This document shows positions 6,001 through 24,943 of a stretch of 64,000 nt of DNA, piece by piece. This stretch comes from Leptogorgia sarmentosa (Eukaryota). Within the stretch, counting starts at the first letter, position 1, and every line of letters starts with the position of its first letter. The stretch is from contig OZ210885.1 in the NCBI GenBank assembly GCA_964658305.1, forward strand, positions 16,058,001 to 16,122,000, given 5' to 3'. The position numbers and the translations under genes are program-made. Below the pieces are notes generated by a model. That model saw only the letters and a program-made list of their open reading frames with translations. It was not told the origin of the DNA and searched no databases.

Positions 6001-6410
6001 AGAGATGAAAAAAAGTCCTCGCCAGCTTGTTTCTGATTTGGACCATGTATATTTACAACTTGAAAAGTGGACTCAAGGTCAACATGCTTTAAACACACGA
6101 CAATGACCCGGCCACTCGTGTCCCTGTTAATACTTTCCACCTGAAAACATGGCTTAAATAGAATCGCTACCCCCACACTACGAATAGTGCCCGGGGAAGA
6201 TTCAACACCGTATTGTTGTAAATTATTGTGCTCTAGGGTCTCTGTCTGTAGCCAGGAGAAAAACTCGTCTTCAGAACGACTATGCGTTTCATGAAGAGCT
6301 ATGATGTCAGGTTTGGCACAATTCAGCCAGGAAAAAAGAGTTTTACAATTAGGACCATTGCATAACCCTTGAACATTTAATGTGATTATGGTTACTTCTT
6401 GGTTAGCCAT
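3032..6410 (-). pseudogene. Tx1 ORF2 (APE endonuclease + reverse transcriptase), frameshifted
   Basis: TLNVQGL, GDFN, SDH, SLDQEKAFDRVDW, GVRQGCPLSPLLY, FQYADD and a C-terminal Cys/His motif (CFCGEQENLLHLFTSC), spread over four ORF-track frames. Confidence 0.9.
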
Positions 6411-6464
6411 AATAAATGTGTGAAAAAGATGTAACTATTATTATTCTATACAAACAAGGGGGAC

Positions 6465-7724
6465 TTAGAAGCTACCATCATCAGAAGTGACAGAGTCACT
6501 TGCAAAAAAGCGACGGAGAGCAAGAGTTTCTTCAAAAGCTTGATTTACTTCTGGTCTGAAAAGATTCGAGGGGCTAGCTACAGTAGAAGAGCTAGCACCA
6601 ACCGGGGCGAAAGGAGTTAGAAGGGAGTCCGATAATTCGTTTCCGATGTCTGAGAGCAAGCCATCAACAATTAAATCAATATCTGACATTCCCTCAATAG
6701 AAGGAATGCCAAACGTTAGAGAGGGGATATGTGGTCCCTCATCCTCCGGCAGGGGAACATTCTCAGGTAATGGTCTCTCGGAATGCTTAACCTCTGGTTG
6801 GATGGTCGTAGGGGGCTCTTCACGCGAAGATGCCTCTTCACTCTCCACGTGAGAATTCTTGCGGAGAGGAGAATGTGAACGGGCCTTGTCAGTTGACTTG
6901 GAAGTTCGATGGCGCTTAGGACGAGGCGGTGGGATAGGGGGGCGTTCTTTGGGCAGGGAACCACTTGCCTCTGGTGTCTGGGACTCACTAGCTCTAGATG
7001 GAGCAAGAGGCAAACCCGAAGAAAGGGCGCTGCCCAAACTTCCGGAGGTCGCGCCAGGCTCAGAGGTCACTGTGTCCAACAAATTGGCCATGGTCTCCCG
7101 AACCTGCTCGTTCTCTTGGCCCACCGTGGGCCGTACCTCACTACCAGGTGTTTCATGGCTAGCCTGTGTTGACCCCTCAACAGCAGGCCGGGATAGAGCG
7201 GGGCAAGCCGACCGATTGTGGCCTTCCTGTCCACACCCGAAACAAAGACATTTTTGGCCCTTATGATGCACGAAGCACCAGTGGCCGGCAATTCGCATGC
7301 GAAAAGGAATGGGTTGCTTTATTTCCATTAACACATGCCTGACCCCAGTATAAATGCGAGAATACACCTCGGATGTGATTTTGCGGATTTCACCGAAGTC
7401 ACTGAGGACTTTGGAGATCTCTTCATCCAGGACCCCGTAAGACAGGCGGGTAACATTAACCCAGGTGTATTTGGACACCGACGGGAATTTGACAGGGAGG
7501 CCCCGCACGGTTAAACTCGTATGTTCGGCAACCTCCATCTTCTGAGCTCCCTTGAAGGTGACGCGGAACCGACCAGGGGCCATCATCGCGACAGCCTCAA
7601 ACACAGAAATATAATCATCGACCTGCCCTCTGAACTCATCGATGACCTCCTTTACATTTACTCTGTGCGCCTCGATGCTGTCAGAAAGGATGACATCGCA
7701 GGTGCGATTGACGTGAGGAATCAT
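6465..7724 (-). CDS. Tx1 ORF1 nucleic-acid-binding protein (CCHC zinc knuckle, disordered C-terminus)
   Basis: Open ~420 aa frame with YTGVRHVLM and CFGCGQEGHNRSAC, directly upstream of ORF2. First ATG at 7724. Confidence 0.85.
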   Translation of the reverse strand: MIPHVNRTCDVILSDSIEAHRVNVKEVIDEFRGQVDDYISVFEAVAMMAPGRFRVTFKGAQKMEVAEHTSLTVRGLPVKFPSVSKYTWVNVTRLSYGVLDEEISKVLSDFGEIRKITSEVYSRIYTGVRHVLMEIKQPIPFRMRIAGHWCFVHHKGQKCLCFGCGQEGHNRSACPALSRPAVEGSTQASHETPGSEVRPTVGQENEQVRETMANLLDTVTSEPGATSGSLGSALSSGLPLAPSRASESQTPEASGSLPKERPPIPPPRPKRHRTSKSTDKARSHSPLRKNSHVESEEASSREEPPTTIQPEVKHSERPLPENVPLPEDEGPHIPSLTFGIPSIEGMSDIDLIVDGLLSDIGNELSDSLLTPFAPVGASSSTVASPSNLFRPEVNQAFEETLALRRFFASDSVTSDDGSF

Positions 7725-7816
7725 CCTCACCACACTATATTACTATACTTTATATTATATATATTTATACTATACTATATTATTATATTTATATATTTAT
7801 GATTTACTAAATTGCA

Positions 7817-8311
7817 TTCGAGAACCAAAGTCTCGAAAAAAAGGAAAGAGAAAAAAAGGAAAGAAGAAAAGGACAAATTTAACTTCGAGAACAAAAAGTC
7901 TCGAAAAAAGTATAACTAACTTCGAGAACCAAAGTCTCAAGAAAAAGGAAAGAAAAGAAAGACTTAACCTGATTCGAGAATGAAAGTCTTGAAAAACAAG
8001 TTAGCCAAATCCGAGAACCGAAGTCTCGAAAAGCAACCTAAATTAATTCGAGAACCAAGTCTCCACTACCAACTTGACTAACTCGAGAACCAAGTCTCGA
8101 AAAACAAATTAACCTAAGTCGAGAACCAAAGTCTCGAAAAACAACTTAACTTAACCGAGAACCAAGTCTCGATAACTAACTTAACTTAACCGAGAACCAA
8201 GTCTCGAAAACACACTTAACTTAACCGAGAACCAAGTCTCGATAGATAATTTAACTTAACCGAGAACCAAGTCTCGATAACTAACTTAACTTAACCGAGA
8301 ACCAAGTCTCA
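7817..8311. repeat. Array of ~13 palindromic CGAGA-ACCAAG-TCTCG units in the Tx1-B 5' UTR
   Basis: Units recur every ~35 bp (longer spacing near 7817-7970) with variable A/T-rich spacers. CGAGA and TCTCG are reverse complements. Confidence 0.9.
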
Positions 8312-8485
8312 AAGCATGAAAAAAGAAGGGAGGAACGAATCTCTCCAGAAAAGAAAGGAAAAAGGAGCCTGTCCTAGCAATTCCCCCTAGGGGGCCTCGC
8401 AGTCAAGCACAGCCACGCGGTGCACCACCAAGGCCGAAGCCAAGGAGGCCTGAGCCGACTGAAACGATCCAAAGGAATGGACTAG

Positions 8486-8672
8486 TCAGCACAGGGACGG
8501 ACACCACAGGAAGACAGCACAGGAACGGACTGGACAGCACAGGAACGGACTGGACAGCACAGGAACGGACAGCACAGGAAAGGACAGCACAGGAAGACAC
8601 CACAGCACAGCAACGGACTGGACAGCACAGGAACGGCCAAGGCAGGACAGGACCACCAGACTGAACAGCACC
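8486..8672. repeat. GACAGCACAGGAACGGACTG-type minisatellite in the Tx1-B 5' UTR
   Basis: Visible 12-20 bp tandem units. The same repeat occurs at 22843-22992. Confidence 0.85.
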
Positions 8673-8744
8673 ACGGATGACGGAAAGGATATCTTCTGCA
8701 GCAGGAACCAGACTTCGGTAGGAAGACCACCAACTTTCAGTATT

Positions 8745-8767
8745 TCTTAGCCAAAAGGCCGAGAAGC
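8745..8767 (-). pseudogene. U2: U2 snRNA 5' fragment (nt ~4-26)
   Basis: Minus strand GCTTCTCGGCCTTTTGGCTAAGA matches the conserved U2 5' end. It is preceded by a remnant of the upstream motif GCTAATGGCAGCGCGAAGGAGG. Confidence 0.85.
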
Positions 8768-9129
8768 CTTCCTCCTTCGCGCTGCCATTAGCGATCGATC
8801 TCTCAGCCTGCACCGTGTTTGCACGTTCCGACAATTCTCGACCATATTCAATAAGAGTTTAGGAAAAAATCATGAGAATGTAAATCTCATGAACAAAAAT
8901 CCTGTTTTCTTAGCGAGCGAGCAAGCCACACAAAACTACATTCAACACATGAATGCTAGGGCCCTGCTTACCATACAAGTATAATTCGTGGTCGGTCATC
9001 TGCACTGAATATGTCATTATATACATCTCCTGCCAAATGCCGTATCGCGATGATCTGTAAAGGCAAGAATAACTTGTTAGAATTTTGAACTGATAGTGAG
9101 AAATCTTCCCCCAATAATGAAATTGGGGG

Positions 9130-9282
9130 AAGTTGGCCGTACTCGGCGGTAGTGCAATACCAAGACAACCCGTGGCCAGGGCGAAGCAAACTTCAATCCC
9201 ATGGCCGAGGTCCAAAAATCAGTTTAATATATGAGTTAGGACATTGCCTAACACATCAGATATTAAGCTGATAAGAACAGAT
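9130..9282 (-). pseudogene. U2: U2 snRNA 3' portion (nt ~38 to end)
   Basis: ATCTGTTCTTATCAGCTTAATATCTGAT, Sm site GATTTTTGGA, and stem-loop IV CTTGGT-ATTGCACTACC-GCCGAG. Confidence 0.93.
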
Positions 9283-9576
9283 TGTAACAAATTTATTCAA
9301 AACAAGAATTAAATATTTACATTTCTAGATAATTACTATATAAGCAGGCTATAAACACAGCTGTTAAATTATACGTACAAAGTGAGAAATTGCTGATCTC
9401 ATTAGAGAAGGATGATCGACTGGATAGTGTTTGTATTGTATTTCATGTGATTGGAATGATTTAAGATATCACTTATGGTGTGATATACGTATTAACTAAG
9501 AAAGGACGACAAATAAATAGAATTTCTTTTACATGAGTTGATGATGATATAAGATTAGTATAATAATGATATTATA

Positions 9577-10849
9577 TTATATAATATTATATATGTGAGT
9601 TCCATTTAGTCTAAATTTTGATGGTCCATGTGGTGGTAGTTCTGCAGAACCACGAATCACATGCGAGCAGCAGAGTTTCCTGAAGAGGGACTTGTAGGAG
9701 TGGGACATTTGTAATTGGTTTAGGACCGCCTCGTTATTGAGATGCCATGAGCCGAGGGCACCAATTACAAAACCAAACATGTTGCATTTCATACCTTGTT
9801 GATGGAATAAGGTTTTGAGGTGATTATACTTGTTGACTTTGTTAAGGTTAGCGGTGGAGAGAGCGTCCTCACCATTGTCAAACGGGCACGTCACATCTAT
9901 AACAGTAACTTCATTGTCCTTGGAGATGACGATGTCAGGTCTGCATTCAGTGAATATCCATGAGGAACCATTGCTGAAGGCATCTTTAACCAGAGCACAA
10001 GCGACTTTTCCTTGGTCAGGAAGGGACATCAATTTGGCCGACGCGTTGTCTTGGATAAGATGATGGAAGAAAGCGGAGCAATTTTTGGCAAGGCAGGGGC
10101 CTTTGGAATTGGTGGAGATGGATGGTGCTTCGTTGTCGGGGACGTTGAAGGTGATGCCAAGTCTGCGACATGCTGTTCTAGCTCTAGTCCAGAGGGAGTG
10201 TGTTCGGTATCTAATGTGTGAAGGGTGGAATTTGCCACGTCTTGAGCAAGATAGAAATTCGCCAGTTAGGGAAGGAGATGGATCGGCTTGGGCAGCAAAC
10301 CTAACGGATTTGAGAAGTTCACCTTTGTCAACAGCACTGACGAATGGATCGGAGGACAATAGCATTTTCATAGCTTGAACAATTGTTTGGGCGTTGACTT
10401 CAAGAAGAGGACCTTGAAAACCAAGGCCACCAACTCGGGAAGAAGCAAAGATGATGTATGAGGTCGCTCTTAGGGGAAAGTTGCAGATGGATCTAACAGT
10501 TTCGATCAGTTTCTTCTTGTATTTGGTGAGTGATTGTTTTTGGGGCAAAGGGCAAAGGTTAGACATGGTAAACAAATGTTCTTATGCAGTCAAGTTTTTG
10601 CGATGGGGCCAGTAGTGAAGACTGGATTCCGTCAAGATCGATACAGAGATCATCAACCAACGATTCTAGGGACTGGACATCACAGAGGATGCCAATGGGA
10701 ACACCAAGATATCGATAGTGTTCATGTTCTTTCAGGCAGGGAATAGCTTTGTTTTGGACTCGGAGTTGGTTCAGTTCGATGTTGTTAGGGTACCTCTTGT
10801 TGTAAGTCATACTTAACGACGCGCACTTATCTTGACGGAAAGACAAACC
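9577..10849 (-). pseudogene. Utopia-like ORF C-terminal part (RT thumb + restriction-like endonuclease)
   Basis: ORFs 10559-10906 and 9577-10575. PD..D motif present; the zinc knuckle region appears deleted just before RPDIV. Confidence 0.82.
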
Positions 10850-12000
10850 AATTATTATTATTATTAATGGTATAAAATACACACAATGAATTGAATAACG
10901 GTGCACTTACAAAGATATGAAAATTACTACTACAATTTTTATACATAAAAATAATAAGTTTTTACGTTCTAATTTAAAAAATAATTACATTCTTACTAAA
11001 CTCATTAAGTATCGCACTTAAGTTTTGTCACTAGAATTGTTATATAAAGCAACTGTACTTGGAAAGAAACTACGACGGTATCTTTCGGTTCGGCATTTTA
11101 TTAATGTTAAGTTGTTCGAGTTTCTTAGTTGGTATTCATTGGAGCTGGCCCTGGTCAGGGGAACATATTTTGACAGTGGTCATTCCATTTGTATTTTTTC
11201 CAAAGTGTCAACACAAAGTTGTTCACGCCTTTCATCCAATCTGGAACACCCAAGTTGTATTAACGCCTCCTTATAAGAGTACCCCGGTAAAATAATCTTC
11301 AGCGCTCGTCTCTGCACTCGTTCAACCTCATTAGCAAGATACAAGGAAATGGAATGGTGCCATACCACACAGCAGTACTCTAGAACTGATCGTATTAGGG
11401 CAAAGTATATTATCAATAAGTCCTCCGCGGGAAAACCACCACGCCGTAATGTTCGGATGATGTAATTCATAGGCAAACTCTTTTAGGATACGGCAGGGGA
11501 TATTATCTGGGCCGTGAGCTTTGAAGGGTTTAAGAGCTTTGAAGGGTTTAAGAGGTTCTAAGAGCTTTCTAGCAACTTCGTATGGTTGGGATGGGTTCTT
11601 TGGCTGGAAGAAATGCCGGGAGTGCTGTTACGTCAAGTGGTGGAATGTCACTACTGACCGATGCATAGAATACATTCAAAGCTTTCACTAATTCTGATTG
11701 GTTCAGGGTTCTTCCATCATGCTCAAGCAAGAAAGAATGATTCTTTTCAGATTTGCCTGCCATTTTGTTCACGATTTTCCACCACATACGGCAGTCATCC
11801 TTCTTTAAATGTTTCACCTTTGTTTTGTAATACGATGTTTTCCTCACTTTGATTTCATGTTGGACCTTATATTTTAGTGTTTTCCACAAGGTTGTGTTTT
11901 GGCCATGAAACGCCTTTTGGCGATCTTTAATAAGTTGTTTAATTGCAGGTGTTATCCATCATTTATCCGTATAATGGCATGTTGACGTCTGTTGTGGAAA
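10850..12000 (-). mobile_element. Deleted CR1/L2-group LINE nested in the Utopia-like element
   Basis: IYFALIRSVLEYCCVVW...VERVQRRALKII RT C-terminus and a (TAA)n tail at 10850-10867. The host ORF resumes at GLSFRQDKC. Confidence 0.75.
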
Positions 12001-12559
12001 GACGGCGGATGAACTTGCAACATCAAGGAGTTGTTGGAGTTTCTCCTTCATTTTAGTGATTATTACGAGGTCGTCGGCATATGATTATTACAAGGTCGTT
12101 GGCATTATGATTAAGTCGGCGGATGAACTTGCGACATCAAGGAGTTTCTCCTTCGTTTTAGTGATTATTACGAGGTCGTGGGCATATGCAAGAACTGAGA
12201 TTTCGCCATTGTGATGTTTAGTTGGACCGATCTGGTGACCTTTTAACGAAATGGCACGGAGGATGATTTCAATACACAGGTTGAACAGTATAGGAGACAG
12301 TGGGCAGCCTTGCTTTACACCAGCTTTGATGGGAATGCTGGGGGTGGAACTAACAGGGGTACGGACTTCAGTGGATGCATTTGTGTAAATGTTTTTAATA
12401 AGGTTTACAATTGAGTCAGGGATACCAAGGTGGGATAAGGTGATCTCAATGACATTGTGAAGTATACTACTGAATGCATTACGTAAATCGAGCCAAGCAA
12501 GGAAAAGATTCTTTTGGTGGCGTTTGGCATCAAGTACCAGTGACTGTAGGATGTGGGTA

Positions 12560-15500
12560 TTATGTTCTATGTATTTGAAAAAACCCAACCCCATACTCAC
12601 TAATTACATGTGTTTATATACTGTTAATAATTAGCATAATTATGACGTAGCATGCATAATAATATTACAACCCCCTTTTTATAGCTAAATCTCTAATCTA
12701 TATTTTTGTTCAAGTTTTCATCATAGATAAAAAATACGTGTCCGAGCTATATATATAGTGAATAGTTTCTTAATATTAATGTTGTTTAACTACTTATATT
12801 AAATTTAAATGTTTCTATACATAGTCCTTATACCGTTCTGGCTTCCTTACAATCCGTCCTGATCTTGTCTTCACGGGCAGTTCTGTTTCATCCGTGGAAC
12901 GGAGGATCTCTTGGCTTTCTTCTCTTGTTTTTTGCTGTTGTGATTGTTCATGCGGTTCATTCATTGTTGGTGAATTGACTTTGCTTTCTTCCTGTGACGG
13001 ACTTTCGGTTGTTTCCCTTACAGATGGGGATTGTGGAACTTGATTATACGTTTTCCTCAAATGTACTCTGTTTCTTCGGTATTGTGCACCATCTTCTGTC
13101 ATAATGTTGAAACTCCTTGGGGTATCTTGTGACAATAGCAGGTTTCCATTTTCCCTCGCGCTGAACAAAAACATCATCGCCTGCCGATAAATGTTCCAAT
13201 GGTCTCGATGATCTATCGTAGTACTTTTTCTGTTCAGCTTGTTTTCGCTTTAATCTTTTCTGAACAATTGTTGGATTGACCATCTTTGGCTGCAGCTGCT
13301 CAGTTGAAGATGGCATTTTTGATCGTAATCTTCTTCCCATACTCAATTGTGCTGGCGATCCCACGTCGTTAATTGGCGTATTTCGGTGTTCCAATATGGC
13401 TAAGTATGGATCTTGATGATCTTTTCGGGCATTCGATAGAATTAACTTCACTGTTCGAACAGTTCTTTCCGCTAGGCCGTTCGTCTTTGGATACAATGGA
13501 CTCAAAGTTACGTGTTTAAAACCCCACGTCTTGGCAAATTCGGCAAACTGTCCGCATGAATACTGTGGACCATTATCGGATTTGATGACTTCTGGTATCC
13601 CATGTCTTGCAAAAAGAGTTTTCATCTTGTCGATTATTACTGCGCTCTTCGTGCTTGAGACTTTAAATATCTCCCAGAATCTGCTGTAGTAGTCAACGAC
13701 TAATAGATAATCATCACCGTTCCAGAAGAACATATCTGTGGCAACAATCGGCCATGGATATTTTGGAACTTCGTTTAAAACCATGGGCTCTTTCTGATTG
13801 CTGGATCTGTATTCTGCACATATAGTACAATTCTTGACCACCGACTCGATATCTTTATTTATGCCTGGCCAAAAAACCAATTCACGAGCCTGTTGTTTAC
13901 TTCTCCCCACGCCCATATGACTTTGATGAATCTTCTTCAACACGTCGTCTCGTAATAAGGGTGGAATGAATATCTTGTTACCCTTGAATACCACGCCTTC
14001 AATTACTGTTATCTCCTCTCTGTAATTCCAGAGTGAATATAATGAACTTGGGAGATGATCTTTGTGACTTGGCCAACCTTCAGAGATAATCTTTACTAAT
14101 GTTTGCATTGTCCCATCTTTACTTGTTTCTTCCTTGATCTCTCTCACTTGTCGTCCGATACAGGTAGGGTTGAGATCATAGAAATCGCATGATGGTCCAA
14201 ATCTAGTGTTTCTTCTTCAGATTTGCAAATGGATAAATGGGCTCTTGACAACGTGTCAACTAAATATAGTTCCTTGCCAGGTCTATATTTTATCTCGATA
14301 TCAAAACTTTGTAAATTCAACAGCATTCTTTGCAAACGAATTGGCGCTTTATCCAGAGACTTTTTCGTAATGGCTTGAAGTGGCTGGTGGTCTGATTCAA
14401 CTACATAGATATACTGATAGAACCGATTGCATCCAAACACGACTGCTAAGAGTTCTTTTTCTATCTGTGCATATCTGGTTTCTGCCGGCGTTAGAGATCT
14501 TGAGGCATACACAACCGGCATATTTGATTGGATAAGAACTGCTCCTAACCCAGATTTCGACGCATCAACCTGCAGCTTCACTGGTTTCGTCACATCGTAA
14601 TAGGTCAACACTCCAGGCTCGGGATTTGCAAGGATGGTCTTAATCTTGTCGAACGCTTTTGCGTGTGTTACTGACCAATGCCATGATACATCTTTTTTAA
14701 GTAATTCTCGCAGTGGTGAAGTGATTTCAGACACGTTCGGTACGAATTTGCTCACATAATTTACCATTCCGAGAAGTCTTTGAACTCCTTTTTTATCCTT
14801 TGGTTCCTTCAGGTTGAATTCCTTCCGGGGTAAACTTGTGTCCGATGTAACTAACATTGGTACACCTGAAATGGCACTTCTCTAACTTGAACTTTAGATT
14901 GCACTCTCTTGCTCTTTCCAACGTAGCCCTTAGACGCTCATCGTGTTCTTGAAGTGTCCTTCCCCACACGAGAATGTCATCAATATCGGTGTGTACTCCC
15001 TGAATATCTTCGAAAATCTGGTGCACACGTTTATGAAATACTTCCTGGGCACTTCGAATTCCAAATGGCATATGGGTAAAACGGAAACGTCCGAATAGTG
15101 TGTTGAAAGTAGTGAGTTTAGCACTCTCTTCGTCAATGGGTATCTGCCAATATCCCGATCTTGCATCCAGCGTGGAGAAATACCGTGCCCCTGGCATTCG
15201 AGCAGCAATTTCTTCTATTGTCGGAAGTTGGTAATGCTCTCTTTTCAATGCTTTATTTAGATCTTTGGGATCGATGCAGATGTGCAGACGTCCATCTTTT
15301 TTCTGGACCACAACCATTGAGTTGACCCAATCTGATGGACCATCGACCTTTTCTAACACTCCTTGTTTGACCATGTCGTCTAGGGTTTTAGCTAGTTGAT
15401 TTCGCACAGGGTGTGGTACTTTGCGAGGTGGATGAATGACAGGGTCTGCATTGGGATCAATTTCCATATGATACGGTCTCGAGAGACAGTCCAGTCCGGT

Positions 15501-16961
15501 GAATACATCAGAATATTCTGCTTGAATCTGTTTCTGGAACTCGTCTTCTGTAGTTTGCTGTGCTGTCATCAAAGGATCCCTGTCTGCCGATTTTACTTGC
15601 AATTCTTGAGTAAACTTGATGAGGTTTAATCTCTTACAGGCTGCTGTGCTGAGTACTGGTTCACTGGGAGACTCGGTTATGTAAAATTCCAGATCATACT
15701 CTTCTCCTCGATGCTTACATTGTAGTTCGCATACAGCTTTAACAGGAACTGGTTTGCCATTATATGCGATGAGATTGAGTGTTGGTTTTCTTAGCGGTAT
15801 TCGCGTAGAGCTCGCTAGTGTTTTGTAGGTCTTGATTGGAATAACATTCACCTCTGCTCCAGTGTCCAATTTGATCTTAACTTCAGTATTGTTCACAGAC
15901 AAAGTTACATATTCAGCTTGATTGTTACTGCTTGTTTTTGTCTCGTCTACGGCGGCTGTTATCCAGTCGAGAAATAAGTAATCATCACCAGTTTCTTCAG
16001 GTTTTAAATCTTTTGTCTTGACTGCATTTAATTTTCCGCTCGAGCGACACATCTTTGCATAGTGATTTAGCTTCTTACATTTATTACATTGACGACCAAA
16101 CGCTGGGCACTTTTGCTTTGGATGTTTATTTCCACAATTTGTACAAGTCTTCCAGGTCTTGTTTCCATTTTGATCTTGACTTGGCTTTCTGTCTTCTGTC
16201 GGTTCGCTTCTTGGCACATATTTCTGTCGCGGTTTGTGTTTTGTTGATTGCTCCGACTTCTTTGTCCTTGTCGAATAGTTTTAATTGTTGTAGAGATAGT
16301 TCATCTGCTTGACATATTTCAATCGCTCGTTTGAGCTTCAAATCCGGCTCTCGAAGAAGCCTTTCCCGGACTCTAGTCGAAACTATTCCGCTTGCGATTC
16401 TGCTGCAGATTAAATCCTCTTTGATGTCGCCCCATTCACAGCTTGAAGCCAGATTCTTGAGTTCTGTCACGTATTGGTCGATCGTTTCAGATTGCTCTTG
16501 ATTCCTCGTCAAAAATCGATGTCGCTCTACGATTAGATTTTTCCTTGGTTTGCAATACTGCTCGAACTGCTGAAATAGCATTCTCACCATCACTATTTCC
16601 TTGCCGTCTTTATCCAAATCAAACTCGAAAGTATCTCGGATATCTTGACCTTGTCTGCCTATTGTGCACATGAATACAGCGACTTTTTCCTCTTTGCTTC
16701 TGTCCTTGCATGTTGCAACTAGGTAGTATTGCATACTTCTTTTCCATTTCGCCCAAGCTTCGGACAAATTGGTCGATTCAAAATTGAGCTCGCCTGGCCC
16801 TCGTATATCGTTTATCTCGTAGCTGAGAAATTGGCCACACCTGACACCATGTTATGTTCTATGTATTTGAAAAAACCCAACCCCGTACTCAGTAATCACA
16901 TGTGTTTATATACTGTTAATAATTAGCATAATTATGACGTAGCATGCATAATAATATTACA
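12560..16961 (-). mobile_element. Gypsy/Ty3 LTR retrotransposon (short ~110-bp LTRs), complete but frameshifted
   Basis: LTRs at 12560-12669 and 16850-16961. PBS TGGTGTCAGG at 16849-16840, PPT AAAAAGGGGG at 12680-12671, TSD GGTA(T). Gene order gag(CCHC)-PR(LDTGA)-RT(DIDD)-RH(DAS)-INT(SDNGPQY, NGLAER). Confidence 0.93.
12815..16790 (-). pseudogene. Gypsy gag-pol polyprotein (frameshifted)
   Basis: ORFs 16126-16767, 14793-16217, 14144-14857, 13044-14147 and 12815-13177 carry consecutive domains, ending in TRSGRIVRKPERY. Confidence 0.88.
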
Positions 16962-17107
16962 GGTATGTTCGTAGCAACCCTCTGTCGGACAAGCACATTT
17001 CTGGGAGGGAGACATGAAGTTGTTATTGATGGAGTAAGTGACCAGACGGTTTGCCATGATGCTCATAAGCAATTTGTATATACAGCTCATAAGGGCAATA
17101 GGACGGA

Positions 17108-17576
17108 AGTTGGACACGTCGGCTGCCAGGCCTTTTTTATGTATGAGGACTGTTCGAGAGGTTTTCCATTGAGCAAGGACATCATTCTCAAGGAGGCAAC
17201 TGTTGAATATATTGCAAAGAATTTTTCCTTTGGGATCAATATTTTTAAGATGTCGGTACTCAACTTGATCAGCTCCAGGGGCAGAATTGGACAGGGAGCG
17301 CAACTTCTTGGAGATTTCTTCGGGTGTAATTGGATCTCCTAGGGACATGTCGGCTGCCGGGCCTTTTTTATGTACGAGGACTGTTCGAGAGGTTTTCCAT
17401 TGAGCAGGGACATCATTCTGAAGGAGGCAACGGTTGAATATGTTGCAAAGAATTTTTCCTTTGGGATCAATATTTTTAAGATGTCGGTACTCAACTTGAT
17501 CAGCTCCAGGGGCAGAATTGGACAGGGAGCGCAACTTCTTGGAGATTTCTTCGGGTGTAATCGGATCTCCTAGGGA
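17108..17576 (-). repeat. In-frame 231-bp tandem duplication in the Utopia-like RT region
   Basis: SLGDPITPEEISKKLRSLSNSAPGAD...HKKG occurs twice in ORF 16932-17657. CTAGGGA at 17339 and 17570. Confidence 0.9.
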
Positions 17577-17933
17577 CTCATCTTTGGGACCAGAAGGGAC
17601 GAATTGGTTTAATCCATTTTTCACCTCATCAACATCCACCGACTTTTCACCGAACACTTTGAAAAAGAAGGAATTAGCTTCGTCTACTGAGCCAGAGTAA
17701 GAGGGCTTGTTATCACTAATGACTTGTCTTGTAGCTCGTTTCTTGGAGATTCGATGTAGGGACGATTTGACGACGCGAAACTTTTACAGACGTTACAAGA
17801 TAAACACCGGTAGATGATTCCACACATCTTTAGGTGTAGTTTGATGTAATGGTCTAATTAATTAGATGTAATTTAATGCAGAAAATTATAGAATTTTGCA
17901 GAGCCCACTCGGGTGTGAACCTGCCTGCGTGCG

Positions 17934-17950
17934 TACTACACTTGATCTTA
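17934..17950 (-). pseudogene. U2: U2 snRNA internal fragment nt 22-38, including the branch-point recognition sequence
   Basis: TAAGATCAAGTGTAGTA lies between the Tx1-C 3' end and the Utopia-like 5' end. Confidence 0.88.
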
Positions 17951-18531
17951 TTTTGAGTTGAACGACGACGGGCTTGTCGACTCCGACGGTGCAATGGAGC
18001 CTGGACCCAAACAAATCGCCCCACCCAGGGGGGTCAGGTAACGCGGATCGACAGGGGTCGTGAGCCCCTTCCCCGTGCCATGATGCAACCGTGAGTGGCC
18101 TGAACGATCCGGTGCTAACCACCTTCACGTCCAGGGATCCCTAACCTAATGATGCTGAAATGGTCAGATGATGATGTTAAACTAAACAATTACAACATGA
18201 GCAGCAACCCCTAGATCAACACCTGTGCAACCCGCTCGGAGCAAGTCCAAGCAAACCACAGGGCAAAAATTGAAACAAATAAACAACCCAATCCGATACA
18301 GGCAGTACAACCAATAAAGGCGACCGCCAGATCTTCATGGGAGGACAATACGAACCAACATTAAACATAAAAACAAATGTGCTGTCCAGTCCAAGACAAC
18401 GACACAAAAACAAACGAGTCCAGAAGGCGACGACAGTACAACCACTGAAGGCGACTGTCGTGCTCCTAGACCACTACATTAACACAAGGAAAACGAAAAA
18501 GGAGAAGAGGGAAGAAAGAAAGAAAAAGGGA

Positions 18532-21049
18532 TCAGGTGATAAAATCCCTGGTAAAGCGGATCCAGTCCTGCTCAGTAAGAGAGCCAATTACACCATCTGC
18601 GAGCCACTCGTGGACAAACCGGTCCCGAGGGCAGTGCCGTTTGTGCATTCGCACTAAAAAGCGGAAGGTGGTCTTCGCCTTCTTCAGGGTGGTGGGAACA
18701 TTTGGAGCAACGTGATCAAAACGATGGGCGTTGCGGCTTAACCAAATGGTGTGTCTTAGTACACCCAGCAAGGCAGAAAAGACAGCGGGCACGTGGTGGT
18801 TTGGAGAGAACCCAAATAATATGGTGGCAACTGGCAGTGAGGGCGCATTCGGTCGGAATTTGTGAAAAATTGACTGGAACCAGTCGATGATCGATACAGA
18901 AAATGGGCAAGAGGTGAATAGATGGAGCAGATTCTCTTGCTCTCCACAAAAACACAGTGGATCCACTCTCATGCCAAACCGAACCAAACGATCGGCCGTG
19001 GGTAAGATGCCGTGGTAGGACAGCCAAGCAGTGTCTTGAACTGACCTCACAAAGCGCCACAGCTGTAATGAGGCCCACACAGCTGGCCATGTGACGTCAA
19101 TGCCCCAGTCTCTAAATTTGGCAACTGAACGATGTTCAATGGTGGAGGAACGCCGGAGCAGGGAATACCCTGTACAAGCAGTGAGCTCAGAGAGAGGAAG
19201 TAATTGTCCAGAAGGACGAGGGATGACCCGTTCGCCCTGCTCGATCCTACCCTTCAAGAGGACCCATGCAGTGAACACGCCCCTATAACAGGGAGGTAGT
19301 TTTTTAATTAAGTAGGCTGGGATCTGATCCCGAGCCAGAACATCAGCAACCGACTGACCAAACGCTAACTCGGTATGGTAGGAAAAGAAGCGGGACCATG
19401 GGTGCATGTGGTTAGCAAAAAAACGACGGAGCCAAACAGCACGAATGGACAAGATTTTATTTGGGGTGTCAACTATGTTTAATCCACCGTCTCCGATGGG
19501 CTGGACCACGGATGTACGCGCCATCCATTCGTGCTTTTTCCCCCAAACAGAAGGAAATATTTTGTTGATTTTAGCAATCGTCATTTTTGGCAGGTCGAAA
19601 ATAGTCGCTTGGTACCAGAAGAGCGACAGCCCCAAGGTATTTATAATGAGTGCTCTGCCCCTAAAAGACAGCTGACGCTGTTTCCATAGTGACAATTGTT
19701 GTTCCAACTTTGCTACTAAAGTATCCCAGTCGGCAGATTCTATATTGGCAACCCGACACCCCAGCACAGTTATGGCGTCACTGGACCAATTGAGCTGGAC
19801 AGGTAGGTCAACCCTATTCTTCCAGGAACCAAAAAGAAGACCATGGCTTTTAGCAATGTTTAGTTTTGCACCTGACGCTTCTTCGTATTTCTCAAAGAGA
19901 GAAAAAAGCGACTGTAGGGCTTTCTCGGAGTGAACAATAACTGACGTATCGTTGGCATACTGAAAAATTTTAATGGTCTCCCCATTGAACATTTGAAAGC
20001 CGTCAATATTGAGGTCCTTTTTTATTGCGTTTGAAATGGTCTCTGCCACAATTATATAGAGTAATGGAGAAAGAGGACACCCTTGACGAACGCTGCAAGT
20101 GATGGTAAAAGCATCGCTCACAAAACCATTAACTAAAATGCGAGAAAAAATGTTGGTGTATAGGAGTTTGACCCATGCACAAAAGGACGGACCAAAATGC
20201 ATCTTTTCCAAAGTGCGTAGCATAAACCCCCAGTCAACTCGATCAAAAGCCTTCTCTTGATCTAAAGATACTATGGCGCCACCGGTATTGTGGCGATTAC
20301 AAAAATTAACTACGTCTTGTAATGTCCTGACATTCAGCCCGGAAAACCAGCCAGGAACACCACAAGCTTGAGATTCCGAGATTACAGAAGAAAGTACTAC
20401 TTTAAGGCGATTAGTAAGCACCTTAGATAGAATTTTGTAATTGGTGCATGAAAGGGAAATGGGCCGCCAATTCTTAAAGTCCAAACGGTCATTTTTCTTA
20501 AAGAGAAGCGAGATTAACCCAGTTCTCTGAGAAAAGGAAAGAGCACCTCGTGCCAAGCAATCATTATATACAGAAACTAAATCAGGTCCTAATGTGTCCC
20601 AAAAGGACTGGTAAAATTCGTACGGTAGACCGTCAAGACCCGGAGATTTGTTATGCTTGAAAGAATTCAAAGCTCGTTGGCATTCAGGTAATGTGACTTC
20701 TCCTTCACAAAGTAGGGCTTCTTGAGAAGAAAGAGATTTATCTAAACTATTGATGAAAAAAGACTCATCCTGGGGTTTATATAAACTAAGTTTATAAAGT
20801 AATGCAACCCCGGCACTACGGATAGAGCCTGGAGAAGATTCTACTAGATAGTGTTGTAAATTATTATGTTTGCTAGATTCAGTAGCTAGCCAGGAATTAA
20901 ACTCTTCAACTGACCGACAATGTTGTCTCCTGAAGTGCAATGATGTCTGGCTTGGCACAATTAAGCCAGAAGAAAAAGGTTTTCCGATTTCGGGGATTAT
21001 GCAATCCCTGTACATTTAAGGTTATAATAAATAAGTGTTGCTTATCCAT
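18532..21049 (-). pseudogene. Tx1 ORF2; most of the endonuclease is deleted and RT YADD is mutated to YAND
   Basis: 827-aa frame with SPGLDGLP, NWRPISL, DQEKAFDRV, RQGCPLSP and FQYAND. It jumps from early EN directly to the linker. Confidence 0.88.
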
Positions 21050-21174
21050 CTTGATTGTATGGGGGGTATACTGTATGATTCTATTACTTTTACTATGTTG
21101 CTATATTATTATTGTACTATTTGACTATATTACTATTTGACTATATTACTATTACTATATTAGCAAGAAACTTG

Positions 21175-22251
21175 CTAAAAACAACTTTCCGACCCATCAT
21201 CGGAAGGAGCACCGCTTTCAGAAAGAGGGCGCAGCGGGAAAAGAGTTTCTTCAGAAGCTTGATTTTCTTCTGGTCTGAAAAGATTCATGGGGCTAGCTGT
21301 ATTAGAAGAGCTAGCACCAACCGGGGCAAAAGGAGTTAACAGTGAGTCCGATAATTCGTTTCCGAAATCTGAAATGGAGCCATTAACGATGACATCAAAA
21401 TCTGACATTCCCTCAATGGAAGGAGTGCCAACCATTAAAGAGGGGATGTATGGTCCCTCATCCTCCGGCAGGGGAACATTCTCAGGTAGAGGACTTACAA
21501 AATGCTCGACCTCTGGCTGGATGGTCGTAGGGGGCACAACACACGAAGACGCTTCTTCACTCTCCACATGAGAATTCTTGCGGAGAGGAGAACGTGAGAG
21601 GTCTTTGTCAGCTGACTTAGAAGACCGACGGCGCTCACGCCGAGGCGGTGCGATAGGGGGGCGTTCCTTGGGCAAGTAACCACTTGCCTCTGGTGTCGGG
21701 GACTCACTGGCTCCAGATGGAGCAGAAGGCAAAACCGAAGTAGGGGCGCTGCCCGAACTTCCGGAAGTCGTGCGAGGCTCGGAGGATACCGTGTCCAACA
21801 AGTTGGCCATGGTTTCTTCAACCTGCACGTTCTCTTGGCCCACCATGGGCCGTACCTCACTACCCGGTGATTCGTGTCTAGCCTGTGCTGACCCCTCAAC
21901 AGCAGGCCGAGAAAGAGTGGGGCAAGACGACCGATTGTGGCCTTCCTGTCCACACCCGAAACAAAGGCGTTTTTGTCCCTTATGATGCACAAAGCACCAG
22001 TGGCCGGCAATTCGCATGCGAAAAGGAATGGGATGTTTTATCTCCATTAACACATGCCTGACGCCAGTATAGATATGAGAGTACACCTCGGATGGGATTT
22101 TACGGATTTCTCCAAAACCGCTGAGGACTTTGGAGATCTCTTCATCCGGGACCCCGTAAGACAGGCGGGTAACATTGACCCAGGTGTATCTAGACACAGG
22201 CCGGACTTGCCCTCTGAACTCATCGGAGGTGCGATTGACGCGAGGAATCAT
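21175..22251 (-). pseudogene. Tx1 ORF1 with N-terminal in-frame deletions
   Basis: Paralogous to 6465-7724 (CFGCGQEGHNRSSC) but lacks two N-terminal blocks. Confidence 0.8.
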
Positions 22252-22305
22252 CCTCACCACACGATATTACTATACTATTATTATATTTTAAATACTAAAT
22301 TGCAT

Positions 22306-22678
22306 ACGAGAACCAAAGTCTCGTAAAAAAGCGAAGAGAAAAAGGGAAAAAAGAACTTAAAACGAGAACCAAGTCTCGCAAACTATAGACCGAGAACCAA
22401 GTTTCGAAAATTCTAAATTAACTAGGCAGAGAACAAAGTCTCGAAAACACACTGTAGTTAACTCGAGAACCAAGTCTCGAAAACTAGCTAAACCGAGAAC
22501 CGAGTCTCGAACACACACTTAACTTATCCGAGAACCAAGTCTCGCAGACTAAATTAGCTTAACCGAGAACCGAGTCTCGAAAACTAACTAAACCGAGAAC
22601 CGAGTCTCGAACACACACTTAAACTAAAACCGAGAACCAAGTCTCGAAAACTAACTAAAACGAGAACACAGTCTCGAA
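22306..22678. repeat. Array of ~11 palindromic CGAGAACCAAGTCTCG units in the Tx1-C 5' UTR
   Basis: Same unit as 7817-8311, with different spacers. Confidence 0.9.
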
Positions 22679-23062
22679 CAGGAAGGGAAGCAGAAAAGAG
22701 GAACGAATCCCTCTAAAAAGGAAAGGAAAAAGGAGCCTGTCCTAACAATTCCCCCGAGAGGGCCTCGCAGTAAGGCACGATCACACGGTGTACCACCAAG
22801 GCCGAAGCCAAGGAGGCCTGAAGCGACCGACACGAACCAAAGGAACGGACTGGACAGCACAGGGACGGACAACACAGGAACGGACTGGACAACAATGGAC
22901 AGCACAGGAAAGGAACAGCACAGGAAAACAGCACAGGAACGGACTGAACAGCACAGGAACAACCAACAGGACAGGACCACGAAACTGAACAGCGTCACAG
23001 CAAGGAAATCTTCTTCACCAGAAACCAGACTTCGGCAGAAAGACCACCAACTGTCAAAACAA

Positions 23063-23082
23063 CTTAGCCAAAAGGCCGAGAG
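23063..23082 (-). pseudogene. U2: U2 snRNA 5' fragment (nt ~7-25)
   Basis: Minus strand TCTCGGCCTTTTGGCTAAG. Confidence 0.85.
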
Positions 23083-23410
23083 AAATGCGGTCCTCCTTCG
23101 CGCTGCCATTAGCAGCCCCGGCTGCAAAATTGCAAGCGAAACGAGCCACAAACGTTATGGCACGCGGTGATGATGAACGCATACAATCAATCATTTGTGC
23201 GCTGCTAATTAATTCGGCTGCACGCGCGAAACTGCTCGCGATGCGGATGCCTTATCCACGAATTTCTGGTGATTTTTTCCCGGTTGCAGGGCGCACATGG
23301 TGCGTTTTCCCGACCTACCTTGGTTCGCTGGCTTCACGACCGATTCGGGAATGGCAAATGACCGACATGCACTGAGTTGAATGAAGCGTGTCCGGTTGCG
23401 TTTCGGTTGG
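23083..23410 (-). promoter_or_regulatory. U2 gene upstream region (proximal part deleted)
   Basis: Highly similar to 50868-50889 plus 51298-51595, which lie upstream of the U2 5' end at 50813. Confidence 0.7.
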
Positions 23411-23413
23411 GGA

Positions 23414-23511
23414 ATGGCCAAGGTCCAAAAATCAGTTTAATATATGAGTTAGGACATTGCCTAACAAATCAGATATTAAGCCGATAAGAACAGAAACTAC
23501 ACTTGATCTTA
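23414..23511 (-). pseudogene. U2: U2 snRNA nt 22 to ~120 (3' truncated)
   Basis: TAAGATCAAGTGTAGTTTCTGTTCTTATCGGCTTAATATCTGAT...GATTTTTGGACC. Confidence 0.92.
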
Positions 23512-24943
23512 TTTTGAGTTGAATGACGTAAGGTTTCGATCATTTCTGACCTGATTCTGGTAGTTCAATGGAACCTCACCTTGTGCAAACGCAGGTGGCG
23601 CTGACCGTCAGGGGTTGTGAGCCCCTCCCCCGTGACATGAGACAACCATGAATGGCCTGAACGATCCGGTGCTAACCACCTTCACGCCCAGGGATCCCTA
23701 ACCTATCATGGTGAAATGGTCAGATTATGATGTTAATCTGGATGGTATCAACATGAGCGGCAACCCCACTGATGCAGCAAGATCGAAAAACATTGAAAAG
23801 CCTGTGCAACCCACACGAGTACAAACCCGAGTGAACCACAGGGCAAAATTAAAGATGCAAGAACAAAGAACATCATCAGACACAGACTGTGCAACCAATG
23901 AAAGCGACCGTCACGTCATCAGATTAACACACACTGCCATCAAATCGCTGACTGTTGCGACTAAGCGAAATATGATGCCGAAGTACACCAAGCAACGCTG
24001 TGTAAGCAACGGGAACACGAGAACCTGAAGAGAAACCAAAGAGTATGTCCGAAAGAGAAGACACAGATGGACATGCGTGTTGTACCCGAGCCAAAAACCA
24101 GTCAAGAACTGCCTTAGCAACCTGACATCGAGCGAAAAGATGAGCCAGGTCTTCCGGAAGACCACAGAAACAATCTGGGTTGACATGGGTTCACGATGGC
24201 CAACTTAGTCAATGCCCATATCACGGAATTTGGCTAAGGAACGATGCTCAACTTGCCGCTGCCGCGAGAGGAACAAGTACCCCTGCGAAGCCAACGGAGG
24301 AGCATGAAATACCAGCTCCATATGATGAGTAAAAAAGACTGACCGAGGATGAGGAGAGGTCGACAAGTATCGTCGGAACCAGACAGCCTTCAATGAGGAG
24401 ATTTTACATGCCACGTCGACCACGCCCAACCCACGATAGGATGCGGGCTGCTTGACAGAAGAACGAGCCATCCATTCACGTTTCTTCCCCCACACAAAGG
24501 GGAAAAGGATCTTATTAACGGCATTAACAACAGACTTGGGTACATCAAAATTGGTGGCTTGATACCAAAAAATGGAAAGTCCCAATACATTTGCGATTAA
24601 TGCACGCCCCTGGAACGGCAACTGGCGCTGTTTCCACAACACCAATTGGCCTTGAAACTGGCCAAGCAACGATATCCAGTCAACCTCATTATTATCATCA
24701 TTGGACCAATTCAGCTCAATCGGCAAATTGACCCGCTGCTTCCACAACCCAACCAAAAGCCCATGACTCTTAGCAACATTCAGTCTGGCACCAGATGCCC
24801 GTTCATACCTCTCAAACAAAGAAAACAAGGCCTGTAAAGCACGATCAGATTGAACGAGTATACTGGTGTCATCCACATACTGGACAATTTTCACTGTCTG
24901 ACCTCCAGGCAAGGCGAACCGTCGATTGCCGGATCTTTCTTTA

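What the first reader, a model, noticed from the sequence alone, without database searches (positions are those of the whole stretch)
9130..23082. One U2 snRNA gene cut into three pieces by two unrelated site-specific retrotransposons
Seen: on the minus strand the order is U2 nt ~7-25, a Tx1 (APE-type) element, U2 nt 22-38, an RLE-type element, then U2 nt 38/39 to the end. Removing both elements rebuilds a near-complete U2. Known: U2-targeting has been described for Tx1-clade Keno and RLE-clade Utopia elements. Inference: here two nuclease classes share one gene by using sites about 13-16 nt apart, with only 17 nt of U2 between them. That bounds how much flank the later arrival needed to recognise its target.
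Basis: partly seen in the sequence, partly recalled or inferred. Interest (0 to 1): 0.85.

Follow-up and report, generated by a model that had tools for sequence, protein, structure and literature searches.

The report
U2 gene split by two retrotransposons
One copy of the U2 splicing-RNA gene is cut at two spots 13 bases apart by two unrelated jumping genes that use different cutting enzymes, and one of them likely aims at a U2 site that the papers read here do not report, a small-RNA parallel to the R1/R2 pair of ribosomal genes.

Summary
On the minus strand: U2 nt 7-25 (23081..23063), a 5.1-kb Tx1/L1-like element (23062..17951), U2 nt 22-38 (17950..17934), an 8.65-kb block with an RLE-element backbone (17933..9282), then U2 nt 39-end (9281..9127).

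The excised pieces align without gaps, 94 of 99 identical, to an uninterrupted U2 fragment 300 bases away.

The Tx1-like family sits at this same U2 position, with a TAAG duplication, at five further junctions in the window.

The RLE backbone is a dead copy. It lacks its N-terminal fingers and its CCHC finger, and it is broken by a nested LTR element, a second LINE fragment and two tandem duplications. Its relatives in metagenome contigs are followed by U2 starting exactly at nt 39, the published Utopia site.

Published Keno uses the same site as Utopia (nt 38/39), so this Tx1-like family uses a different U2 site, after nt 25. The U2 head also lacks nt 1-6 and about 52 bases of its promoter-proximal flank.

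The order of arrival is unresolved, so the "minimal flank" bound is conditional. No whole genome was held, so no census was possible.

Verdict: real; a new variant of known kinds; moderately interesting.

The parts
23063..23081 (-). U2 piece 1, nt 7-25 (TCTCGGCCTTTTGGCTAAG). The 5' copy of the TAAG duplication is 23066..23063.
   Evidence: Sequence. Exact motif match. It equals Rfam consensus positions 7-25 as printed.
23082..23410 (-). U2 upstream spacer, about 312 bp and high in copy number. It has lost about 52 promoter-proximal bases plus U2 nt 1-6 (junction GCATTT|CTCTCGG).
   Evidence: 85.6% identical to 51298-51595. Alignment. The undeleted form is seen at 50814-50897 and as loose ends at 23081 and 23083. 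Contig depth is roughly 40-100 times that of the element families.
17951..23062 (-). Tx1/L1-like non-LTR retrotransposon, copy A, 5112 nt. It has a 5' UTR with short repeats and ORF1 (22266..21175, one CCHC knuckle). ORF2 (21015..18532) has RT and zf-RVT, but most of its APE domain is deleted. The 3' UTR ends ..TTCAACTCAAAA.
   Evidence: ORFs. Pfam RVT_1 1.8e-29 and zf-RVT 5.7e-8. tblastn to the 1183-aa relative P0001 covers aa 4-149 weakly and aa 428-1183 at 68%. End alignments.
17934..17950 (-). U2 piece 2, nt 22-38 (TAAGATCAAGTGTAGTA). TAAG (17950..17947) is the 3' copy of the duplication. It ends with the branch-site-pairing GTAGTA.
9282..17933 (-). Composite block whose backbone is a dead Utopia-like RLE retrotransposon. 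It matches relative P0125 at aa 507-1347. The N-terminal zinc fingers and the CCHC finger (aa 1152-1245) are missing and there is one frameshift. The RLE motif RPD..IDVT..KVNKY is kept. The 3' end reads ..AATAAATTTGTTACAA.
   Evidence: tblastn. Homologs. Sequences. PDB alignment of P0125 to R2 proteins.
12560..16961 (-). Nested Ty3/gypsy-type LTR retrotransposon with 110-bp LTRs (3 differences) and a TACC/ATACC duplication. Removing it restores the RLE reading frame (..EGCYEHT|HILQSL..).
   Evidence: Pfam RVT_1, RNase H and integrase hits. Contigs of other copies join 12554 to 16961.
10852..12014 (-). Nested, internally deleted fragment of another non-LTR retrotransposon with a (TAA)n tail.
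   Evidence: Contig joints 10851->12015 and 10850->12110.
17112..17573 (-). 231-bp tandem duplication inside the RLE reverse-transcriptase N-terminal region. A second duplication with a 105-bp period lies at 12036-12188.
9127..9281 (-). U2 piece 3, nt 39 to the 3' end.
   Evidence: Rfam 107.4 bits. Motif match.
23414..23512 (-). Neighbouring U2 fragment (nt 22 to about 121) that directly follows the 3' end of Tx1-like copy B. It runs unbroken through nt 38/39.
23513..27008 (-). Tx1-like copy B. It is 5'-truncated and broken by a Tc1/mariner-type insertion whose ORFs lie at 25168-26102 (+).
   Evidence: tblastn. Pfam DDE_3 and HTH_Tnp_Tc3_2.
2504..8745 (-). Tx1-like copy C, near full length but frameshifted. 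It keeps the APE domain. It is preceded by U2 nt 4-25 (8767..8746) and followed by TAAG (2503..2500).
   Evidence: Pfam Exo_endo_phos 3.9e-7.
1107..2499 (-). Tx1-like copy D, head-to-tail after copy C, with an internal deletion in its 5' part.
50789..50813 (-). A further U2 head, nt 1-25 (ATCACTTCTCGGCCTATTGACTAAG), behind the undeleted upstream flank. It is followed at 50788 by the 5' UTR of another Tx1-like subfamily (copy E).

Best explanation
One U2 snRNA gene copy is interrupted after nt 25 by a Tx1/L1-like retrotransposon flanked by a TAAG duplication, and after nt 38 by a decayed Utopia-like retrotransposon of the restriction-like-endonuclease class; the two most likely arrived by separate target-primed reverse-transcription events, each enzyme likely nicking its own U2 site.

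**Shown.**
- The three U2 pieces and their colinearity.
- The TAAG duplication.
- The same Tx1-like/U2 junctions at five more places in the window.
- The nt-39 start of U2 behind the RLE element here and behind its relatives elsewhere.
- The two different nuclease domains in the two families.
- The later decay of the RLE copy by nested insertions.

**Inferred.**
- For the Tx1-like enzyme, a bottom-strand nick between nt 21 and 22 and a top-strand nick between nt 25 and 26. This is a 4-nt stagger, hence TAAG.
- For the RLE enzyme, both nicks between nt 38 and 39, hence no duplication.
- The elements would be co-transcribed from the U2 promoter.
- The RLE element probably came first. I put this at about 60%, because it carries more structural damage and because APE-type cleavage usually reads a short local sequence.
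For: **U2 pieces.** Their identity and colinearity rest (94 of 99 identical, no internal gap, across the RLE site).

**Tx1-like family at one site.**
- 3' junctions TTCAACTCAAAA|TAAG occur at 17947-17962, 23508-23523 and 2500-2515. That is 3 exact matches, plus one 2-mismatch match at 39826 that no other search supports. The count is 4 matches against 0.17 expected.
- Copy B's flank continues as U2 through nt 38/39 to about nt 121.
- 5' junctions ..GGCTAAG|element occur at 23063, 8746 and 50789.
- The tandem C-D junction keeps TAAG.

**Nuclease classes.**
- Relatives of ORF2 carry Exo_endo_phos, RVT_1 and zf-RVT. Copy C scores 3.9e-7 for Exo_endo_phos.
- P0001 is colinear with human L1 ORF2p at 2.3e-91.
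- The RLE relatives P0125, P0134 and P0164 have N-terminal C2H2 fingers, RT, a CCHC finger and the RPD..D..K motif. Pfam finds no Myb domain in them.
- P0125 aligns to R2 proteins in the PDB at 4.5e-62, including the finger and the nuclease.

**RLE lineage is U2-directed.**
- Ten metagenome loci have at least 34% identity and a match that reaches the C-terminus.
- Six of them (L003, L004, L005, L007, L008, L016) are followed by TCTGTTCTTATCAG. L007 and L008 are identical in RT.
- Rfam finds U2 in 9 of the 18 closest loci scanned and in 0 of 20 more distant ones.
- In the RT tree, the window copy lies in a 19-row clade (SH-aLRT 99). That clade is sister (SH-aLRT 92) to the clade holding all 10 U2-flanked metagenome elements.

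**Nested inserts came later.** Contigs of other RLE copies join across them.
Against: - There is only one RLE/U2 junction pair for this family in the window, and no genome was held for a census.
- The closest metagenome relative, L001 (76% identity), has no U2 behind its 3' UTR. A Tx1-like ORF1 fragment follows instead.
- The RLE copy starts at aa 507 of its relatives, behind about 150 nt of unexplained sequence. Its 5' junction at nt 38 may therefore not be the family's usual one. The metagenome relatives show 14-20 nt of duplicated U2 (nt 39-52/58) at their 5' side, and the window copy shows none.
- The U2 head lies behind a deletion that removed nt 1-6 and the proximal flank. Rearrangement has therefore acted on this locus.
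- One contig form in three runs of one sample joins 23139 directly to 17952, and this is not explained.
- Tx1-clade membership was not tested against named reference elements.
Confidence: 0.8

Rival explanations
1. The U2 nt 7-25 piece would not be the resident gene's own left part. It would be a U2 'head' brought in with the Tx1-like RNA, by co-transcription from a donor U2 gene or by 5' transduction. In that case only two of the three pieces belong to the hit gene.
For: Tx1 families and SINEU elements with U2-derived 5' heads are described in PMC4494074 (passages read). Heads A and C are both abnormal: copy A lacks nt 1-6 and copy C lacks about nt 1-3/5. Both follow a shortened flank that starts with the same 24 nt, GCTAATGGCAGCGCGAAGGAGGA.
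Against: Upstream of head A lie 312 bp of the canonical, very high-copy U2 upstream spacer. A transcript started at U2 +1 would not carry that spacer. Head E sits behind the undeleted flank. The tandem C-D junction shows that the element proper starts after TAAG.
Confidence: 0.1
2. The doubly interrupted gene would be a recombinant. Unequal crossing-over or gene conversion in the U2 array would have joined a Tx1-bearing copy to an RLE-bearing copy, with no second insertion into an occupied gene.
For: The locus is rearranged. U2 fragment B is cut at about nt 121 and joined to the spacer. Flank deletions differ between copies. Contigs show alternative joints.
Against: The exchange would have to fall within the 13 nt of U2 (nt 26-38) between the two elements. 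The pieces are exactly colinear, with no gap or overlap.
Confidence: 0.07
3. The arrangement would be an assembly chimera of repeated sequences.
For: All components are multi-copy. No contig shown spans either junction with unique flanks.
Against: The junctions are base-exact at positions each family uses elsewhere. The nested inserts have their own target duplications and restore the reading frame when removed. Runs from three studies hold parts of the junction stretch.
Confidence: 0.03

Closest known systems
Utopia (U2 snRNA gene-targeting RLE non-LTR retrotransposons, NeSL clade; Kojima and Jurka 2015, PMC4640811; abstract and sections 5, 6, 7 and 9 read)
   Same: The 3' flank is U2 starting at nt 39 (TCTGTTC). 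The family encodes one protein with N-terminal zinc fingers, RT, a C-terminal CCHC finger and a PD..D/ExK nuclease, and no Myb domain. There is no target duplication, as reported for arthropod Utopia. The 3' ends read ..AATAAA..A|TCTG, as in the U2-flanked metagenome relatives.
   Different: The host appears to be an octocoral-type cnidarian, judging from the only named protein hits (Paramuricea, Xenia). That phylum is not in Table 1 of the 2015 paper. The window copy is a dead fragment without the fingers. Its placement among named Utopia families was not tested, because no reference sequences were at hand.
Keno (Tx1 clade, APE-type, U2-specific; Kojima and Fujiwara 2004, not held; seen only through PMC4640811 section 6, PMC6136364 passages and PMC4494074 passages)
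   Same: It is an APE plus RT element with an ORF1 that carries a CCHC knuckle. It is inserted in sense orientation in U2 genes, it occurs in tandem, and it is found in cnidarians.
   Different: Published Keno has the same 3' flank as Utopia (TCTGTTCTTATCAGTTTAAT, nt 39). Here the 3' flank starts at nt 22 and the 5' flank ends at nt 25, which is 13-17 nt upstream. I could not check whether the Repbase cnidarian Keno (Tx1-1_HM) also uses this site.
R1 and R2 in insect 28S rRNA genes (recalled, not read here)
   Same: An APE-type and an RLE-type site-specific LINE use two nearby sites in one multicopy RNA gene, and single genes can carry both.
   Different: The target is a 190-nt snRNA gene. The sites are 13-17 nt apart, against about 74 bp for R1/R2 (recalled). 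The APE partner belongs to the L1/Tx1 group and not to R1.
Tx1 families and SINEU elements with U1/U2-derived 5' heads (Kojima 2015, PMC4494074; passages read)
   Same: A U2 5' segment stands directly in front of a Tx1-type 5' UTR.
   Different: Here the head is preceded by the U2 gene's own upstream spacer, and U2 continues behind the element. The element therefore sits in a U2 gene and does not carry a captured head to other targets.

Membership tests
Utopia | The 3' end of the element abuts U2 starting at nt 39 (TCTGTTCTTATCAG) | tested here: met
   The window reads ..TTGTTACAA|TCTGTTCTTATCAGCTTAAT, with T39 at 9281. The same junction occurs in 6 of the 10 related metagenome loci that reach the C-terminus.
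Utopia | One protein with 1-3 N-terminal zinc fingers, RT, a C-terminal zinc finger and an RLE domain, without APE or Myb | tested here: met
   Met by the full-length relatives P0125, P0134 and P0164. The window copy keeps only RT and RLE, covering aa 507-1347 and lacking aa 1152-1245.
Utopia | The RT groups with named Utopia families in a phylogeny | tested here: inconclusive
   No named references were available. In a 46-row quick tree, the window's 19-row clade is sister (SH-aLRT 92) to the clade with all 10 U2-flanked metagenome elements and two sponge proteins. It is separate from other RLE-type loci.
Utopia | Many copies of the same family are flanked by U2 (family-level specificity) | tested here: inconclusive
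   The window holds one copy. One contig loose end at 9302 hints at a second 3'-tail variant next to U2.
Keno (Tx1 clade) | ORF2 with an N-terminal APE endonuclease and RT, and ORF1 with a zinc knuckle | tested here: met
   P0001 and most relatives carry Exo_endo_phos, RVT_1 and zf-RVT. Copy C scores 3.9e-7 for Exo_endo_phos. ORF1 has a CCHC knuckle, a weak Pfam hit below cut-off plus the sequence read directly. Copy A has lost the APE domain.
Keno (Tx1 clade) | Specific insertion in U2 snRNA genes | tested here: met
   Three U2-flanked 5' junctions, two U2-flanked 3' junctions and one tandem junction lie in the 64-kb window.
Keno (Tx1 clade) | The 3' flank is TCTGTTCTTATCAG.. (the same site as Utopia, nt 38/39) | tested here: not met
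   The 3' flank is TAAGATCAAGTG.. (nt 22 onward) in copies A and B, and TAAG in copy C.
Keno (Tx1 clade) | The RT falls in the Tx1 clade next to named Keno families | not testable with these tools
   No named Tx1 or Keno sequence was returned by any search. The only anchor is that human L1 ORF2p is the closest solved structure, 2.3e-91 and colinear over aa 5-881.

The most novel reading that the evidence does not exclude
This cnidarian genome holds a U2-specific Tx1-type lineage whose cleavage site (nt 21/22 and 25/26, TAAG) lies 13-17 nt upstream of the site shared by published Keno and Utopia. Because of this, an APE-type and an RLE-type parasite can stack in one 190-nt snRNA gene. That would be an snRNA counterpart of R1/R2 niche partitioning. 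The double hit shows that one of the two enzymes works with no more than 17 nt (RLE) or 13 nt (APE) of U2 on one side of its cut.
Probability: 0.55. Interest if true: 0.65.

Novelty: new variant of a known kind. Interest (0 to 1): 0.55.

Why it matters
Site-specific LINEs are models for how retrotransposon proteins read DNA targets. R2-type enzymes are being developed for targeted gene insertion (PMC13580325, passages read).

A second U2 site used by a Tx1-type element would show that target choice inside one tiny gene can shift or evolve twice. It would also offer a natural case of two nuclease classes dividing one snRNA gene between them. In the papers read here this is not reported: Keno and Utopia are said to share one site, and they are listed from different hosts.

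The doubly hit gene also gives a testable upper bound on how much U2 sequence one of the enzymes needs on one side of its cut.

The find would add cnidarians to the hosts of Utopia-like elements.

Tried and rejected
- **Whole-genome census.** No genome is held for this window.
- **Rfam on the excised sequence.** I replaced it with a script alignment to an uninterrupted U2 fragment and by reading against the Rfam consensus printed. An earlier script used a start two bases off and is superseded.
- **Second read-laying run on the middle junction.** Counts of singly versus doubly occupied U2 genes therefore remain open.
- **Runs not laid.** Nothing is concluded from them.
- **Genome-contig scan** for U2 with a non-C at nt 21: 0 hits. 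That collection is prokaryotic, so this says nothing.
- **Earlier scan notes.** By place and by sequence there was nothing. By words I found only cases at the nt 38/39 site in other genomes.
- **blastn of five window stretches against the 80 loci.** The stretches were the RLE 5' 330 nt, the RLE 3' UTR, both Tx1 UTRs and the spacer. Only a low-complexity match turned up.
- **L001 3' UTR** does not align with the window's 3' UTR.
- **The 150 nt at 17933..17783.** blastx gives only weak matches (E about 0.7) to the finger-2/finger-3 region (aa 65-100) of several relatives. This hints at an internal deletion and proves nothing.
- **Order of insertion.** No usable clock was found. Both elements have long open frames, and only the structural damage differs.
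- **U1 5' motif search.** It gave no more than chance.
- **ARAGORN on the small inverted-repeat element.** It found no tRNA.
- **Tx1-clade placement.** No named reference came back. A paper search for Tx1 in octocorals gave nothing relevant among the 10 papers listed of 213 found.
- **Cnidarian Utopia in print.** It is not in Table 1 of PMC4640811. I read none of the 13 listed papers for it, apart from the Utopia passages of PMC13188248 and PMC13580325, which report sponge Utopias. Repbase could not be consulted.

Full report
**1. What is there**

All features lie on the minus strand.

Rfam finds two U2 matches at gathering threshold. One is at 9127-9316 (107.4 bits), with good alignment from about model position 39 to the end. 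The other is at 23409-23532 (58.5 bits).

Reading the sequence gives this order:
- TCTCGGCCTTTTGGCTAAG at 23081..23063, which is U2 nt 7-25.
- 5112 nt of foreign DNA at 23062..17951.
- TAAGATCAAGTGTAGTA at 17950..17934, which is nt 22-38.
- 8652 nt of foreign DNA at 17933..9282.
- TCTGTTCTTATCAG... from 9281, which is nt 39 to the end at 9127.

Each short motif is far rarer in shuffled sequence than observed.

In a script I joined the three pieces, counting TAAG once. They align to an uninterrupted U2 fragment 300 bases away (23512..23414) with 94 of 99 identical and no internal gap, across the second insertion site. The Rfam model could not be run on the excised sequence, because the tool reads only held sources.

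**2. The first element**

Copy A has two ORFs:
- ORF1 (22266..21175) has one CCHC knuckle.
- ORF2 (21015..18532) is an open 827-aa frame with RVT_1 (1.8e-29) and zf-RVT.

Its relatives in the protein collection are about 1180 aa long and carry Exo_endo_phos, RVT_1 and zf-RVT. The only named hits are from the octocoral Paramuricea.

The relative P0001 is colinear with human L1 ORF2p (2.3e-91). Against P0001, copy A lacks about aa 150-427, so most of its endonuclease is gone.

The element is flanked by TAAG on both sides, at 23066..23063 and 17950..17947.

**3. The same junctions recur in the window**

- The 3' end TTCAACTCAAAA|TAAG occurs exactly three times: copy A, copy B (23508-23523) and copy C (2500-2515).
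- Behind copy B, U2 runs on unbroken through nt 38/39 to about nt 121.
- Behind copy C comes TAAG and then the 5' end of a fourth copy D, head to tail.
- 5' junctions ..GGCTAAG|element occur at copy A, at copy C (8746; the head is nt 4-25) and at copy E. Copy E is another subfamily, at 50789, with a head of nt 1-25 behind an undeleted upstream flank.
- Copy C keeps an Exo_endo_phos domain (3.9e-7).

The 13 nt ATCAAGTGTAGTA are therefore not a constant part of this element's terminus.

**4. The second element**

Four reading-frame pieces match RLE-type proteins of 1198-1371 aa at up to 82% identity. The pieces are 17783..16932, 12603..12088, 10906..10559 and 10581..9577. Named hits are Xenia and Paramuricea.

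These relatives have N-terminal C2H2 fingers, RT, a CCHC finger and RPD..D..K. Pfam finds no Myb domain in them. P0125 aligns to R2 proteins in the PDB, including the finger and the nuclease (4.5e-62).

The window copy covers aa 507-1347 of P0125:
- It lacks the N-terminal fingers and aa 1152-1245, which hold the CCHC finger.
- It has one frameshift.
- It keeps the nuclease motif.

Four later events inflate the block from about 2.75 kb to 8.65 kb:
- A Ty3/gypsy-type element at 16961..12560, with 110-bp LTRs (3 differences) and a TACC/ATACC duplication. Its removal restores ..EGCYEHT|HILQSL...
- A 1163-nt internally deleted fragment of another LINE with a (TAA)n tail.
- Two tandem duplications, of 231 and about 105 bp.

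Contigs of public runs of the same organism label join across both nested inserts. Other copies of the RLE family therefore lack them.

**5. Is the RLE element U2-directed?**

In the window it ends ..TTGTTACAA directly before T39, and U2 ..GTAGTA (nt 38) stands directly before its 5' end. There is no duplication and no loss.

A scan of metagenome contigs with an alignment of 15 relatives gave 80 loci:
- Ten loci have at least 34% identity and a match that reaches the C-terminus.
- Six of these are followed by TCTGTTCTTATCAG (L003, L004, L005, L007, L008, L016). L007 and L008 are identical in RT.
- Of the other four, L001 is followed by a Tx1-like ORF1 fragment, L006 by an inverted U2 head, and L010 and L011 end before any U2.
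- Rfam finds U2 in 9 of the 18 closest loci scanned and in 0 of 20 more distant ones.

I built a quick maximum-likelihood tree of 46 RT rows. The window row was made of three pieces with X at the breaks. The window copy sits in a 19-row clade (SH-aLRT 99). That clade is sister (SH-aLRT 92) to the clade that holds all 10 U2-flanked metagenome elements and two sponge proteins.

This matches the behaviour and architecture that define Utopia (PMC4640811, sections 5, 6, 7 and 9). The metagenome relatives carry 14-20 nt of duplicated U2 at their 5' side, which the window copy does not.

**6. Comparison with what is published**

[quoted passage not shown] PMC6136364 (passages) gives Keno's 3' target as TCTGTTCTTATCAGTTTAAT.

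The Tx1-like family here has its 3' flank at nt 22 and its 5' flank ending at nt 25. It therefore fails that defining feature of Keno while behaving like a U2-specific Tx1-type element.

The 2015 host list for Utopia has no cnidarian (Table 1). Keno is listed from frogs, fish, lancelet and hydra. The later papers I looked at add sponge Utopias (PMC13188248 and PMC13580325, passages).

I could not consult Repbase. A cnidarian Keno entry that uses nt 25/26 may already exist there.

**7. Context of the locus**

The 312 bp upstream of the U2 head (23410..23099) recur at 51595..51298 (85.6%). Together with U2 they are roughly 40-100 times deeper in contigs than the element families. This fits a high-copy U2 repeat unit.

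The undeleted proximal flank is seen at 50897..50814 and as loose ends. It shows that the head of the doubly hit gene has lost about 52 flank bases and U2 nt 1-6. The locus is a decayed, rearranged stretch of snRNA repeats.

**8. Mechanism and order**

The simplest account is two separate target-primed insertions. The nick positions are inferred from the junctions:
- Tx1-like enzyme: 21/22 on the bottom strand and 25/26 on the top strand.
- RLE enzyme: 38/39 on both strands.

Which came first is not shown. The RLE copy has more structural damage, and the tandem Tx1 junction shows that this family can land where U2 context survives on only one side. Both points lean towards RLE first, at about 60%.

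Either the RLE enzyme needed at most 17 nt of U2 upstream, or the APE enzyme needed at most 13 nt downstream.

Three rivals are listed with their tests: an imported U2 head, a recombinant of two singly hit genes, and an assembly chimera.

**9. Verdict**

It is a new variant of known kinds, for three reasons:
- It is a U2-directed Tx1-type family at a site that the papers read here do not report.
- It coexists with a Utopia-like family in an apparently cnidarian genome.
- One gene carries both.

It is one locus with dead copies and no census, so interest is moderate (0.55).

Noticed in passing
window 51812-52017 (-) and 52018-53310 (-): A 3'-truncated U1 pseudogene scores 54.5 bits, below Rfam's gathering score. 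It starts directly behind the 3' end of another Tx1-like element (..TATATCCAACATA|AACTTACCTG). This may be a U1-directed Tx1 family. Its 5' end is cut off by another LINE, so no second junction could be read.
   Followed up: partly
window 50898-51279 (-): A 380-bp element with terminal inverted repeats of about 29 nt (TTTCGATTCCGTCGACGGTCGGACACCTC) is inserted in the U2 upstream spacer. By eye it holds a tRNA-like stretch, but ARAGORN finds no tRNA.
   Followed up: partly
window 17952-18518 (-): The 3' UTR of the Tx1-like family is about 5-10 times deeper in contigs than its ORFs. This suggests many 5'-truncated copies or a short non-autonomous element that shares this tail.
   Followed up: no
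window 17952 joined to 23139: One contig form in three runs of one sample joins the U2 spacer at 23139 directly to ..AATAAGATCAAG at 17952. It skips Tx1 copy A and the U2 head. This could be a deletion derivative or a paralogous locus, and it remains unexplained.
   Followed up: no
L001 2370-3086: In the closest metagenome relative of the RLE element (76% identity), the 3' UTR is followed by a Tx1-like ORF1 fragment in the same orientation and not by U2. The two families are therefore neighbours in another sample too.
   Followed up: partly
window 25168-26102 (+): A Tc1/mariner-type transposase remnant (DDE_3, HTH_Tnp_Tc3_2) is inserted in Tx1-like copy B.
   Followed up: partly
window 23099-23410 and 51298-51595 (-): The 312-bp U2 upstream spacer is at least as abundant in contigs as U2 itself. 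Depths at single positions reach 2-3 times the U2 bin mean. No Rfam family matches it.
   Followed up: no
window 55438-57000 and 58639-59556 (-): Further LINE fragments lie here: a Tx1-like one, and a second family with a (TAA)n tail near 57890. The whole window is a nest of non-LTR elements around snRNA gene remnants.
   Followed up: no
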